From positions 15,290 through 79,289 of the forward strand of contig CAZGOA010000005.1 of NCBI GenBank assembly GCA_964527425.1: 64,000 nucleotides of DNA. Direction: 5' to 3'. Source of the stretch: an uncultured Gammaproteobacteria bacterium. GTDB taxonomy: Bacteria; Patescibacteriota; Microgenomatia; UBA10105; UBA927. The notes beneath the pieces are model-generated. The model was not told the origin of the DNA. It saw only the letters and a list, made by a program, of their open reading frames with translations, and ran no database searches. Shown piece by piece: positions 15,995 to 18,900 of the stretch (positions are counted from its first letter, which is position 1; every line of letters starts with the position of its first letter). A program made the translations under genes and the position numbers.

Positions 15995-18900
15995 CCTTCG
16001 TTCTCCCAAGCATTCGATCGATTAGTATAGCTAAGCTAAACATATTACTATGCGTACACCTGCTACCTATCAACCCAGTCATCTTCTGGGAATCTATAAC
16101 GATACCTCATCTTAAGGGGGGCTTGGCGCTTGAGATGCTTTCAGCGCTTATCCCTTCCGAATATAGCTACCCTACACTGCCGGTTTTCCGACAATAGGCA
16201 CACCAGGGATTCGTTCCTCCCGGTCCTCTCGTACTAAGGAGAACTCCTTTCAAGTATCAAACGCTCACGCAGGATAGAGACCGAACTGTCTCACGACGTT
16301 CTGAACCCAGCTCACGTACCCTTTTAACCGGCGAACAGCCGGACCCTTGGGACCTTCTCCAGCCCCAGGATAGGACGAGCCGACCATGTATTCCCACTAT
16401 TACTAGTGGCATAGACTATACCATCATCCGCCAATGGCGGAGTTTAGCGTGTGATAAATATGAAATTCATATCTATCTCACCACACCCATATAAATGAAT
16501 GTGGATCAGTCGTTACGGGGTTACCATCTATTTATTAGAATACTCTAAAAAACATAAGGAACTTCCCTCGGTATTGCCCTTTACGCGGTTCAAAACGTAG
16601 TAGGGTTCCACCGATATGAGCTAAATTTTTCGTTAGAAGATTACTCTTCTATGCGACATAACCCAAACTAGGGTTTATCGAGGTGCCAAACCGCCTCGTC
16701 GATATGGACTCTCGGAAGCGATCAGCCTGTTATCCCCAGAGTAGCTTTTATCCGTTAAGCCCGGTCCCTCCCACGAGGGAGCCGAGGATCACTAACACCG
16801 ACTTTCGTCTCTGCTCGACATGTCCGTCTCACAGTCAAGCTGGCTTGCGCGTTTGCACTCTAGATCCCGGTTTCCATTCGGGATGAGCCAACCTTTGTAC
16901 GCCTCCGTTACATTTTTGGAGGCAACCTCCCCAGTTAAACTGCCCGTCAAACAGTGTCCTCCACCTGGATTTTTATGCAGGTGCGAGTTAGATTTCTTCA
17001 TTTCGAAGAGAGGTATTCCATTGGTGACTAAAAGTCTCCCTCCTATTCTCGACAGTCAAAATAAAGTCTTCAGTGTCAAACTACAGTAAAGCTTCATGGG
17101 GTCTTCTTGTCCATGCGTGAGTAGGCCGCATCTTCACAGCCATTTCAATTTCGCCGGGTAGTGGTTCAAGACAGTCGCTATGTCATTCTACCTTTCGTGC
17201 GGGTCGGAACTTGCCCGACAAGGAATTTCGCTACCATAGAACAGTTATAGTTACTGCTGCCGTTCACCGGAGCTTATATCATCACCTTGATGTAATCTTA
17301 GTGACAATACTTAACTTACCGGCACTGGGCAGGTGTCAGCCCCTATACGTTGCGTTTCCGCTTCGCAGAGACCTGTGTTTTAGTTAAACAGTTGCATAGC
17401 GTCGTTAACTGCGGCCCTGATTGCTCAGGGCAAGGCATCTCCCAAAGGTTACGCCTAGTTTTTGTTGCCGAGTTCCTTAAACCACTGTCGCCCGCTTGCC
17501 TTGGTATTCTCTACCAGCGCACCTGTGTCGGTTTGCGGTACGGAATGTTTGTGCTCCTCAATGAGACTTTTCCCGGAAGCAGAACTATTTCTGTTGCCCG
17601 CTTCTTGCGATTTGAGCTTCTATTCGTGCCTCGTATTAAGCATAATCGCGGATTTACCTACGATCACTATTTTGGCACTTAACAGCCGACGAATCGACTG
17701 TGAAACCTGTCCTCCTTCGTCATCCCCTTGAGTCTTAATTGACACAAACATGTAACGGAATATAAACCGTTTTTACATCGAGTTACGCCCTCAATAAGAA
17801 GGCCTCACCTTAGCTCCGACTTACCCGACGACGACGAACGTTGCGTCGGAAACCTTGCGCATTCGGCATGAAGGATTCTCACCTTCAAACGCTACTCATT
17901 CCGGCATTCTCACTTCTTAACGCTCCAGACCGGTTTACACCGTATCCTTCACTGCATTAAGAACGCTCCCTTACCAGATGCAACGTAATAAATTACATTG
18001 CAAATCTCTAGCTTCGGTATGTTGCTTGAGCCTCGATCATTTTCGGCGCCACGGTTTTCGTCCAGCGAGCTGTTACGCTTTCTTTAAAGGGTGGCTGCTT
18101 CTAAGCCAACCTCCTGGGTGTCTTAAAACCATGACATCCTTAACCACTAAGCAACAATTTAGAGACCTTAGCTGAAAGTCTGGGTTGTTTCCCTTTTGAC
18201 GCACGAGCTTAGCCCCGCACGACTGACTGGTCAAGTAGATAGATAAGAATTCGGAGTTTGGTTAGTGTCAGCGCCTTGCGACGCGTACACCATTCAGTGC
18301 TCTACCTCTTTCTATCCTCATTCAACCGCTATACCTAAATATATTTCAGGGAGAACCAGCTATCTCTTGGTTCGATTGGCATATTACCCCTATCCACAGG
18401 TCATCTCACAGTTTTGTAACACTGACGAGTTCGGGCCTCCCCCCGACTTTCGTCGGGGTTCACCCTGCCCATGGATAGCTCACCAAGTTTCGGGTCTACT
18501 ACTACCTGCTAACGCCCTGTTAAGGCTCGCTCTCACTGCGCCTCCCCGTAATTCATTACGGTTAGACTTGCAGACAGTAGTAACTCACCGGATCATTCTT
18601 CAATAGGCACGCGATCACTACATTCAGTGCTTGCGCACGAATGTAGCTCTCACTGTTTGTTAGCTGACAATTTCAGGTACTATTTCACTCCCCTTCTGGG
18701 GTACTTTTAACCTTTCCCTCACGGTACTAGTTCACTATCGGTGCACGTTTGTATTTAGCCTTGGATCGTGGTTGACCCAGGTTCCCACAGAACCTTGGTG
18801 TTCCATGGTACTCAGGAATAAACTAGCGGAGAAATCAGTTTCGAATACACGGCTTTCACGTTCTTTGGCTGAACATTCCAGATCATTCTTCTACCGATTT

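What the first reader, a model, noticed from the sequence alone, without database searches (positions are those of the whole stretch)
16385..16676. ORF-less ~292-nt insertion in the 23S rRNA peptidyl-transferase ring at a classic group I intron site
Reverse-complementing the 23S and aligning it by eye to E. coli 23S shows that domain V is colinear except for 292 nt inserted exactly between CACCUCGAU and GUCGGCUC, between E. coli U2504 and G2505. The upstream exon ends in U and the insert ends in G. These are the two hallmarks of group I splice sites: U.G in P1 and omegaG. The insert carries a GUCG guide-like tract about 17 nt in, which could pair with the exon's CGAU, and a GACU...AGUC pair that could form P7. 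It encodes no ORF of 60 aa or more, so it would be a homing-endonuclease-free intron. Removing it gives a mature 23S of about 2946 nt, which is the normal size. If it were not spliced, the PTC would be disrupted.
Basis: partly seen in the sequence, partly recalled or inferred. Interest (0 to 1): 0.7.

Follow-up and report, generated by a model that had tools for sequence, protein, structure and literature searches.

The report
ORF-less group I intron in 23S rRNA
The 292-base insert in this bacterium's 23S rRNA gene is a real group I intron with no endonuclease gene, sitting in the ribosome's catalytic centre, but such introns are already known to be very common in this group of ultra-small (CPR/Patescibacteria) bacteria, so it is a well-supported but ordinary find.

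Summary
Window 16385-16676 (minus strand) is a 292-nt insertion in an otherwise full-length bacterial 23S gene (16002-19228). It lies exactly between E. coli U2504 and G2505. It starts after a U, ends in G, and holds no ORF longer than 33 aa inside it.

- Rfam's group I model matches end to end: 43.1 bits, E 7.5e-10 on the local region, below the gathering score of 50.
- The lone sequence folds into P1-P9 (z = -6.3).
- A metagenome scan found about 50 loci with an insertion at the same site. Twelve distinct relatives are 63-71% identical to this one.
- On that alignment the fold is 95% paired, against 35-44% when partners are slid. 34 of 69 pairs show compensatory changes, and 0 of 500 shuffles reach that.
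- The U.G splice-site pair, the GUCG guide, P7 (GACU/AGUC), P9.0 and the terminal G are invariant.
- Two extra hairpins (P7.1, P7.2) point to subgroup IA.
- Longer relatives carry an I-SceI-like LAGLIDADG_2 endonuclease gene in P6, so this copy probably lost it.

The host appears to be a Microgenomates-type CPR bacterium. In CPR, 82% of 23S genes carry insertions (Tsurumaki 2024). L2504 is a catalogued site in Cryptococcus mitochondria. Splicing itself is inferred, not shown. Verdict: new member of a known kind, low interest.

The parts
16002..19228 (-). 23S rRNA gene (host gene), full length, interrupted once
   Evidence: RF02541, 2328 bits, model positions 1-2925
16385..16676 (-). Group I intron, 292 nt, no ORF, inserted after U2504 (site L2504)
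   Evidence: Sequence read. RF00028 43.1 bits, E 7.5e-10. Covariation. Site numbering.
16677..16680 (-). Last 4 nt of the 5' exon (CGAU, C2501-U2504): 5' strand of P1. U2504 forms the U.G wobble at the splice site.
   Evidence: Alignment columns 6-9 pair with columns 32-35 in 13 of 13 sequences
16654..16676 (-). P1 extension hairpin (AAACCC / GGGUU) plus internal guide sequence GUCG (intron 20-23 = window 16654-16657)
   Evidence: 5 of 9 P1 pairs show compensatory changes across homologues. Helix map.
16635..16650 (-). P2 hairpin with GNRA-type loop (A-GUAA-U)
   Evidence: 6 of 7 pairs covary. Also in the single-sequence fold.
16620..16625 (-). P3 5' strand (UUUAGC)
   Evidence: Pairs with 16443-16448. 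100% of cells paired, with C-G to U-A exchange in 5 sequences.
16568..16614 (-). P4-P5-P5a domain (P4 UCGGUG/UACCGA, P5 CCC/GGG, P5a hairpin)
   Evidence: P4 and P5 are invariant and fully paired. 4 of 5 P5a pairs covary.
16517..16567 (-). P6-P6a hairpin. In relatives L184 and L148 the LAGLIDADG_2 ORF sits in this loop.
   Evidence: 9 of 13 pairs covary. ORF position in L184 and L148.
16508..16511 (-). P7 5' strand (GACU), preceded by a bulged C: the predicted guanosine-binding helix
   Evidence: Pairs with AGUC at 16414-16417. Invariant in 13 of 13 sequences. Matches the RF00028 consensus AGACUA...UAUAGUCU.
16481..16504 (-). P7.1 hairpin
   Evidence: Folds as a hairpin in all 13 homologues despite different sequences
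16453..16477 (-). P7.2 hairpin
   Evidence: Folds as a hairpin in all 13 homologues despite different sequences
16443..16448 (-). P3 3' strand (GCUAAA)
16427..16441 (-). P8 hairpin
   Evidence: 5 of 7 pairs covary
16414..16417 (-). P7 3' strand (AGUC) within the conserved J8/7-P7 block GAUGGUAUAGUCUAUGCC
   Evidence: Invariant block in alignment A1. Pseudoknot pairs counted.
16393..16412 (-). P9.0 5' strand (AUG) and P9 hairpin with GUAA tetraloop
   Evidence: 4 of 6 P9 pairs covary. P9.0 (AUG/CAU) is invariant.
16385..16392 (-). 3' tail AAUACAUG: CAU is the P9.0 3' strand and the terminal G (16385) is omega-G
   Evidence: 13 of 13 class A homologues end in CAUG before GUCGGCUC. All the roughly 50 L2504 inserts end in G.
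15764..15880 (-). 5S rRNA gene downstream of the 23S (operon context)
   Evidence: RF00001, 74.3 bits
19485..19558 (-). tRNA-Ala(UGC) upstream of the 23S. No 16S gene anywhere in the window.

Best explanation
Window 16385-16676 (minus strand) is a group I intron of the IA structural type with no ORF. It interrupts the 23S rRNA gene of a CPR/Patescibacteria (Microgenomates-like) bacterium between U2504 and G2505, in the central ring of the peptidyl-transferase centre.

Proposed mechanism, inferred from the known chemistry of group I introns:
1. In the precursor rRNA the guide GUCG (intron 20-23) pairs with exon CGAU, presenting U2504 in a U.G wobble (P1).
2. A free guanosine bound in P7 attacks after U2504.
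3. The terminal G (16385), positioned by P9.0 (AUG/CAU), then takes its place in P7.
4. The freed 3'-OH of U2504 attacks before G2505. This joins the exons into the universal sequence CACCUCGAU-GUCGGCUC and releases the intron.

The intron most likely descends from a mobile form that carried an I-SceI-like LAGLIDADG_2 homing-endonuclease gene in the P6 loop, as relatives L184 and L148 still do, and has since lost it. It would now be inherited vertically.

Shown here: the position, boundaries, fold, covariation and family membership by structure. Inferred: that it splices, that it does so without protein help, and the loss of the endonuclease gene.
For: Position and boundaries: sequence read, LSU model break at 2530|2531, joined exons align gap-free to E. 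coli 23S, numbering via A2451.

Group I signature: RF00028 matches model positions 1-253 at 43.1 bits, E 7.5e-10.

Fold: the single-sequence minimum-energy fold gives P1 extension, P2, P3, P4, P5, P5a, P6, P6a, P7.1, P7.2, P8 and P9, with z = -6.31.

Homologues: a metagenome scan for 23S genes with a non-G after U2504 gave 72 loci. About 50 have an insertion at exactly this site, all ending in G and nearly all with a GUCG-type guide near the 5' end. Twelve distinct ORF-less class A relatives are 63-71% identical to the window intron.

Covariation: RNAalifold independently recovers P1 with U.G, P2, P3, P4, P5, P5a, P6, P8 and P9. For my full structure with the P3/P7 pseudoknot, 95.3% of cells are paired against 35-44% when partners are slid, 34 of 69 pairs have compensatory changes, and 0 of 500 shuffles reach any measure. 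P7.1 and P7.2 hairpins form in all 13 sequences.

Mobility history: relatives L184 and L148 have a LAGLIDADG_2 ORF in P6 (PF03161, E about 1e-45), related to I-SceI (PDB 1r7m, E 4e-17).

Host gene is healthy: full-length 23S at 2328 bits.

Host and context: RarA homologues named Gottesmanbacteria, Microgenomates and Patescibacteria at 65-67% identity. The literature reports insertions in 82% of CPR 23S genes, 222 ORF-less group I introns in 23S clustered round the peptidyl-transferase centre, and removal from transcripts (PMC11270868).
Against: - The RF00028 score (43.1 bits) is below Rfam's gathering score of 50. The hit disappears in a whole-window scan.
- P4, P5, P7 and P9.0 are invariant among the homologues, so covariation neither supports nor contradicts them.
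- P10 is weak, at most 2 pairs by eye.
- No RNA data were available, so excision and exon ligation are not shown for this intron or for any class A relative.
- No intron-less allele of the same species could be recovered. Contigs from other samples break inside the 23S.
- The copy number of the 23S gene in this genome is unknown.
Confidence: 0.9

Rival explanations
1. It is a true group I intron but not self-sufficient. Having lost its endonuclease or maturase gene, it needs a host or trans-acting protein to fold and splice in vivo. This is a variant of the main explanation rather than an exclusive alternative.
For: It has no ORF, while relatives encode LAGLIDADG proteins, some of which act as maturases in other systems (stated in PMC11270868). 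P10 is weak. The intron is AT-rich (40% GC in the Rfam hit), which often goes with protein-assisted folding in organelle introns (my own knowledge).
Against: All core helices are intact and stable (MFE -95.5 kcal/mol, z -6.3). GNRA loops in L2 and L9 are conserved in 13 of 13 sequences, consistent with the tertiary contacts self-folding introns use. ORF-less Patescibacteria tRNA group I introns of type IA self-splice in vitro (PMC13011429).
Confidence: 0.2
2. It is a decayed, splicing-dead intron (or an assembly chimera) in a non-functional 23S copy. The cell's working 23S is elsewhere.
For: There is no transcript evidence. The Rfam score is below gathering. Copy number is not known from a 64-kb window.
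Against: The window intron keeps every one of the more than 100 positions that are invariant across the 13 homologues, and all helices pair. The surrounding 23S is full-length and scores higher than those of relatives (2328 bits against 1780-1889). The same site is occupied by related introns in many independent assemblies, which argues against a chimera. CPR bacteria usually have a single 23S gene (PMC11270868).
Confidence: 0.04
3. It is an intervening sequence or expansion segment that is either kept in the mature rRNA or cut out by RNase III without religation, giving a fragmented 23S.
For: Such intervening sequences exist in bacterial 23S genes, and probably in CPR at sites 23IS2 and 23IS4 (PMC11270868).
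Against: The site lies between two universally conserved peptidyl-transferase-centre nucleotides, not in a variable helix tip. The ends of the insert do not form the long duplex RNase III needs: only 3 end-to-end pairs in the fold. The insert has the full group I core with covariation and the U / G boundary rule.
Confidence: 0.02

Closest known systems
Group I introns in 23S rRNA genes of CPR/Patescibacteria (Brown et al. 2015; Tsurumaki et al. 2024, PMC11270868)
   Same: Same host clade (inferred), same gene and same region: frequent sites 23IS6-14 cluster round the peptidyl-transferase centre. The same mixture of LAGLIDADG-encoding and ORF-less copies at one site. 222 ORF-less group I introns in 23S were already counted.
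   Different: The paper's text names sites 1917, 1931, 1952, 2593, 2604 and 2657. The positions of 23IS9-11, which lie between 1952 and 2593, appear only in a figure I could not read, so I cannot confirm that 2504 is one of them. The 23S endonucleases it stresses are LAGLIDADG_1, whereas the L2504 relatives here carry LAGLIDADG_2.
[quoted passage not shown]
   Same: The same insertion site by E. coli numbering. They occur either with a LAGLIDADG_2 (PF03161) endonuclease gene (1032 nt) or without an ORF (344-417 nt), the same two states seen in the class A family here (263-319 nt, or 910-924 nt with LAGLIDADG_2).
   Different: Fungal mitochondrion versus free-living or episymbiotic bacterium. 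I had no Cryptococcus sequence, so homology of the ribozyme or the endonuclease was not tested.
Group I introns in 23S rRNA of other bacteria (Thermotoga, Coxiella, Simkania, cyanobacteria), cited in PMC11270868 refs 27-30 and PMC13011429 ref 31
   Same: [quoted passage not shown]
   Different: Those sit at L1917, L1931, L1951 and L2593 (my own knowledge), not L2504, and several encode endonucleases.
Chloroplast rrl group I introns of green algae at neighbouring sites 2500 (IB) and 2511 (IA3), e.g. Floydiella terrestris (PMC2997540)
   Same: ORF-less group I introns of 380-400 nt within the same 12-nt stretch of the peptidyl-transferase-centre ring. Locus L132 here also has a second intron about 8 nt downstream (~L2511/2512).
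   Different: Different exact site and therefore a different guide sequence. The site-2500 intron is of subgroup IB, which would not be expected to have P7.1/P7.2.
Saccharomyces cerevisiae mitochondrial omega intron (L2449) and its endonuclease I-SceI
   Same: The endonuclease encoded by ORF-containing relatives of this intron is an I-SceI homologue (E 4e-17). Both target the LSU peptidyl-transferase-centre region.
   Different: Different site (2449 versus 2504). The window's copy has no endonuclease gene at all.

Membership tests
Group I intron | P1 helix formed by an internal guide sequence and the 5' exon, with a U.G wobble at the splice site | tested here: met
   Exon CGAU pairs with GUCG. 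U2504.G is present in 13 of 13 homologues, and the P1 extension covaries.
Group I intron | Conserved core P3-P4-P5-P6 and P3-P7-P8-P9 with the P3/P7 pseudoknot | tested here: met
   All helices are present. P3, P5a, P6, P8 and P9 covary. P4, P5 and P7 are invariant but fully paired. Overall 95.3% paired against 35-44% when slid.
Group I intron | Guanosine-binding P7 (G-C pair next to a bulged nucleotide) and the conserved J8/7 segment | tested here: inconclusive
   The sequence fits: A-[C bulge]-GACU / AGUC-U, and GAUGGUAUAGUCU matches the RF00028 consensus. It is invariant, so there is no covariation test, and binding was not assayed.
Group I intron | 3'-terminal guanosine (omega-G), positioned by P9.0 and/or P10 | tested here: met
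   The intron ends in G in all of the roughly 50 L2504 inserts. P9.0 AUG/CAU is present in 13 of 13 sequences. P10 is weak.
Group I intron | Score at or above Rfam RF00028's gathering threshold (50 bits) | tested here: not met
   43.1 bits, E 7.5e-10 on the 401-nt region. Class A relatives score 29-39 bits. This threshold is a curated cut-off of one model, not a biological criterion, and the match covers model positions 1-253.
Group I intron | Removal restores a continuous functional exon sequence | tested here: met
   The joined exons give CACCUCGAUGUCGGCUC and align without a gap to E. coli 23S. LSU model positions 2530|2531 are adjacent.
Group I intron | Guanosine-dependent two-step transesterification (self-splicing) | not testable with these tools
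   Needs an in vitro splicing assay or RNA-seq.
Subgroup IA (Michel and Westhof 1990) | Extra helices P7.1 and P7.2 between the 5' strand of P7 and the 3' strand of P3 | tested here: met
   Two hairpins at that place in all 13 homologues, with different sequences. The definition is from my own knowledge.
Mobile (homing) group I intron | Encodes a homing endonuclease | tested here: not met
   No ORF longer than 33 aa inside the insert. Relatives L184 and L148 do encode LAGLIDADG_2.
Group II intron | Six-domain structure, typically over 600 nt, with domain V | tested here: not met
   Only 292 nt. No group II family appears among all Rfam matches up to E = 10 on the region.
23S intervening sequence (RNase III-processed IVS) | Replaces the tip of a variable helix (e.g. 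H25, H45) and forms a long terminal stem that is cleaved without religation | tested here: not met
   The site is in the invariant peptidyl-transferase-centre ring. The ends form only 3 pairs with each other. The helix locations are from my own knowledge and PMC11270868.

The most novel reading that the evidence does not exclude
The class A and class B L2504 introns may form a distinct IA-type lineage that routine Rfam-based annotation largely misses. They score 29-43 bits against a gathering score of 50, and this one is absent from a whole-window scan. The lineage is widespread in CPR 23S genes. It shares both its exact site and its endonuclease family (I-SceI-like LAGLIDADG_2) with fungal mitochondrial mL2504 introns, which would point to transfer between CPR bacteria and eukaryotic organelles. 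A more speculative extension: because the intron splits the peptidyl-transferase-centre ring itself, its excision could act as a checkpoint that keeps 50S precursors inactive until late in assembly, in organisms that have lost about half of the usual ribosome-biogenesis factors (PMC12641178 abstract).
Probability: 0.12. Interest if true: 0.45.

Novelty: new member of a known kind. Interest (0 to 1): 0.22.

Why it matters
For the biology of this organism, the catalytic centre of its large-subunit rRNA is encoded in two pieces and depends on RNA splicing. That is a striking fact in general, but it is already documented as typical of CPR/Patescibacteria.

Three practical points follow:
- rRNA annotation and 23S-based phylogeny or primer design for such genomes must remove this insert.
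- This lineage of L2504 introns falls below Rfam's group I threshold and is dropped by whole-genome scans, so surveys that rely on that threshold undercount it.
- The family found here gives a ready-made alignment for a better covariance model and for choosing a compact, roughly 260-290-nt ORF-less ribozyme for splicing assays. It comprises about 15 distinct class A sequences plus related class B sequences, some with and some without the LAGLIDADG_2 gene.

Tried and rejected
1. The genome-contig scan with GTTTGGCACCTCGATH was wasted. As a result I could not survey isolate or MAG genomes or name the source genome.

2. I looked for the same intron, or an intron-less allele, in other samples through exact-protein look-ups.
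- Contigs carrying the flanking genes RarA and DinB all break inside the 23S before reaching site 2504.
- Spurious ORFs overlapping the 23S are not on record.

3. A cluster look-up for the RarA protein returned no accession or organism name.

4. Building a covariance model from alignment A1 failed. I used an nhmmer profile instead.

5. The supplement of Tsurumaki 2024 was searched for the positions of sites 23IS9-11. They are only in figures.

6. A literature search for 'L2504' as a word start found nothing. Searching inside words found the Cryptococcus mL2504 paper.

7. Rejected readings are a group II intron, an RNase III intervening sequence and a pseudogene or chimera. Reasons are in the rivals and membership test.
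Full report
**What is in the sequence**

The window carries, on the minus strand, tRNA-Ala(UGC) (19485-19558), a full-length bacterial 23S rRNA gene (16002-19228; RF02541, 2328 bits, model positions 1-2925) and a 5S gene (15764-15880). No 16S gene is present anywhere in the 64 kb.

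Reading the minus strand gives ...GGTTTGGCACCTCGAT | AAACCC...ACATG | GTCGGCTCGTCC.... On the local region the LSU model breaks between model positions 2530 and 2531.

The exons joined in silico align as one uninterrupted piece to the 23S of all 5426 complete E. coli genomes. In an annotated E. coli copy the junction lies 53 nt after the second A of GGGAUAACAGGC. By established numbering that A is A2451, so the insert lies between U2504 and G2505. That copy is annotated as 2900 nt, so its own count reads 2500; the canonical number is 2504.

No ORF longer than 33 aa lies within the insert. The 23S has no other large insertion: 3227 - 292 = 2935 nt.

**Is it a group I intron?**

Scanned alone, the region matches Rfam's group I model RF00028 over the whole model (1-253) at 43.1 bits, E 7.5e-10. 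That is below the curated gathering score of 50. The hit is not reported at gathering threshold, nor in a whole-window scan at E <= 0.05. Routine annotation would therefore miss it.

The isolated RNA folds at -95.5 kcal/mol against -66.2 +/- 4.6 for shuffles (z = -6.31). The minimum-energy structure already shows the P1 extension, P2, P3, P4, P5/P5a, P6/P6a, two hairpins after the 5' strand of P7, P8 and P9.

By inspection and by the Rfam alignment:
- Exon CGAU pairs with GUCG (intron 20-23), with U2504.G at the splice site.
- GACU (166-169), preceded by a bulged C, pairs with AGUC (260-263) to form P7.
- AUG (265-267) pairs with CAU (289-291) as P9.0, next to the terminal G (292 = window 16385).

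**Comparative test**

My first collection scan used too short a pattern and returned chance matches. A metagenome scan for 23S genes with a non-G after U2504 (TCGACGNNNNNGTTTGGCACCTCGATH) then gave 72 loci. About 50 of them have an insertion at exactly this site. Every one of these ends in G before GTCGGCTC or GTCGACTC, and nearly all have a GUCG-type guide in the first 10-30 nt.

The inserts fall into at least three types:
- Class A resembles the window's intron. It is 263-319 nt without an ORF, or 910-924 nt with one.
- Class B is 252-262 nt, or about 900 nt with an ORF.
- Class C has exon GTCGACTC and scores 87 bits on RF00028 in L151.

An nhmmer profile of class A finds all class A copies at L2504 (200-245 bits). 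It finds class B as clear sequence homologues (90-123 bits) that lack the 5' part. It finds only weak core similarity to introns at other 23S sites, and no second copy in the window.

I aligned the window intron with twelve distinct ORF-less class A relatives (A1). They are 63-71% identical to it.
- RNAalifold, without guidance, recovers P1 with the U.G pair, P2, P3, P4, P5, P5a, P6/P6a, P8 and P9. 34 of its predicted pairs show compensatory changes.
- Counting my full structure including the P3/P7 pseudoknot and P9.0, 95.3% of cells are standard pairs, against 35-44% when the partners are slid by 1-3 columns.
- In that count 34 of 69 pairs have changes on both sides, and 0 of 500 shuffles reach any of the five measures.
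- P1 extension, P2, P5a, P6a, P8 and P9 covary strongly. P3 shows C-G to U-A exchange.
- P4, P5, P7 and P9.0 are invariant, which neither supports nor contradicts them.
- The stretch between the 5' strand of P7 and the 3' strand of P3 folds into two hairpins in all 13 sequences despite unrelated sequences. These are the P7.1 and P7.2 helices that define subgroup IA in the Michel-Westhof scheme (my own knowledge).
- GNRA loops cap P2 and P9 in all 13 sequences.

The structural definition of a group I intron is therefore met. The only formal criterion not met is Rfam's bit-score cut-off, and class A relatives score even lower (29-39 bits).

**Mobility history**

Class A members L184 (924 nt) and L148 (910 nt) carry a 210-224-aa ORF in the P6 loop. 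It is a LAGLIDADG_2 endonuclease (PF03161, E 2e-45 and 1.4e-43) homologous to I-SceI (PDB 1r7m, E 4e-17). The window's copy has only a 51-nt P6/P6a hairpin there.

The simplest reading is the usual cycle of gain, degeneration and loss of the endonuclease gene. The window holds a derivative that has lost it. This is inferred, not shown.

**Host and context**

The neighbouring RarA protein's closest named homologues (65-67% identity) come from Candidatus Gottesmanbacteria, the Microgenomates group and Patescibacteria. The genome is 32-37% GC, with an unlinked tRNA-Ala-23S-5S unit. The closest intron relatives come from, among others, 0.1-um-filtered Hainich groundwater assemblies (L149, L178). 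I infer a Microgenomates-type CPR bacterium.

For this clade, Tsurumaki et al. 2024 (PMC11270868) report the following:
- Insertions in 82% of 23S genes, with 45% of the insertions matching Rfam's group I model.
- 222 ORF-less group I introns in 23S.
- Frequent intron sites 23IS6-14 clustered round the peptidyl-transferase centre.
- A patchy mix of LAGLIDADG-encoding and ORF-less copies at the same site.
- Usually a single 23S gene per genome.
- Citing Brown et al. 2015, that the insertions are removed from transcripts.

The sites named in their text are 1917, 1931, 1952, 2593, 2604 and 2657. The positions of 23IS9-11 are given only in figures that I could not read.

L2504 itself is a catalogued group I site in the Comparative RNA Web site. 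Cne.mL2504 and Cga.mL2504 sit in Cryptococcus mitochondrial LSU rRNA, and occur with a LAGLIDADG_2 gene (1032 nt) or without one (344-417 nt) (PMC5808193). Green-algal chloroplast rrl genes have introns at the neighbouring sites 2500 and 2511 (PMC2997540).

**Mechanism**

Inferred from the established chemistry of group I introns:
1. In the pre-rRNA the guide GUCG pairs with C2501-U2504.
2. An exogenous guanosine bound in P7 cleaves after U2504.
3. The terminal G replaces it in P7.
4. U2504's 3'-OH attacks before G2505, restoring CACCUCGAU-GUCGGCUC.

The insert splits two universally conserved nucleotides of the peptidyl-transferase-centre ring. An unspliced 23S could hardly be active, so if this is the only copy, splicing is obligatory.

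ORF-less IA-type group I introns from Patescibacteria tRNA genes do self-splice in vitro (PMC13011429). This makes autonomous splicing plausible here but does not prove it.

**Rivals**
- Protein-assisted rather than autonomous splicing is a real possibility (about 0.2) and is not exclusive of the main explanation.
- A dead intron in a pseudogene, or an assembly chimera, is unlikely (about 0.04). The intron keeps all family-invariant positions, the 23S is intact and scores higher than those of relatives, and the site is occupied in many independent assemblies.
- An RNase III-type intervening sequence or a retained expansion segment is very unlikely (about 0.02). The site is invariant core, the ends do not form a long duplex, and the insert has a covarying group I core.

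**Limits**
- No RNA data were available.
- No intron-less allele from the same species was found. Contigs from other samples break inside the 23S.
- The source genome could not be named.
- No subgroup covariance models were available, and my own covariance model could not be calibrated within the time limit.

**Verdict**

This is a genuine ORF-less IA-type group I intron at L2504 of a CPR 23S rRNA gene. It is a new member of a kind that is already well described for this clade and this region of the gene, so interest is low (0.22).

The modest added value has four parts:
- Site L2504 is heavily and diversely occupied in environmental bacteria.
- The class A and B lineage falls below Rfam's threshold.
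- That lineage pairs with an I-SceI-like LAGLIDADG_2 endonuclease, as the fungal mitochondrial mL2504 introns do.
- A covarying alignment is now available for it.

Noticed in passing
L121:1-437 (Logan SRR32675154), compared with window 16270-16300: A contig from another sample encodes a RarA protein identical to the window's and has about 95% identical 23S 3' end and 5S. It carries a 419-nt group I intron (RF00028 93.5 bits) after GACAGU, i.e. after U2604 (site L2604, 23IS13 of Tsurumaki 2024). The window's 23S is uninterrupted there. Intron content therefore differs between near-identical strains.
   Followed up: partly
window 1-64000; rRNA unit 15764-19558: The rRNA unit is tRNA-Ala(UGC)-23S-5S. 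There is no 16S gene and no tRNA-Ile anywhere in the 64 kb, so the rRNA operon is unlinked. Relatives L149, L134 and L135 show the same tRNA-23S-5S arrangement.
   Followed up: partly
window 16385-16676; L132, L140, L143, L147: Class A L2504 introns score only 29-43 bits on RF00028 (gathering score 50). The window's intron is not reported at all when the whole 64-kb window is scanned, even at E <= 0.05. Other introns in the same relatives' 23S genes pass the threshold. This lineage would be undercounted by Rfam-threshold surveys.
   Followed up: yes
L131-L202 (metagenome contigs): Site L2504 is occupied in about 50 metagenomic 23S genes by at least three intron types. Class A is like the window's. 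Class B is a shorter sequence homologue lacking the 5' P2 part. Class C has exon GTCGACTC and is recognised by Rfam at 87 bits. Each type occurs with and without an ORF of about 600-1300 nt.
   Followed up: partly
L132:97-1220: Two introns lie 8 nt apart in the peptidyl-transferase-centre ring. A 283-nt class A intron sits at L2504, followed after GTCGGCTC (~L2511/2512) by a second insertion that appears from its translation to encode a LAGLIDADG-type protein (not checked against Pfam).
   Followed up: no
L184:2217-2849 and L148:1341-2015: ORF-containing class A introns encode 210-224-aa LAGLIDADG_2 proteins (PF03161) homologous to I-SceI, inserted in the P6 loop. The published CPR survey stresses LAGLIDADG_1 for 23S sites. 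The fungal mitochondrial mL2504 intron also carries LAGLIDADG_2.
   Followed up: partly
L022, L136, L160, L163, L175: Several MAG or metagenome 23S genes read CGAT-A-TCGGCTC, i.e. A instead of the near-universal G2505, with no insertion. This could be real variation (G2505A is linked to linezolid resistance, from my own knowledge), heterogeneity between rRNA copies, or sequencing error.
   Followed up: no
window 42922-46257 and 51209-53140: The window encodes a 1111-aa RND-type efflux permease and a 643-aa protein that matches beta-1,2-mannobiose phosphorylase and mannosidase families. These seemed to me somewhat unexpected for a reduced CPR-type genome.
   Followed up: no
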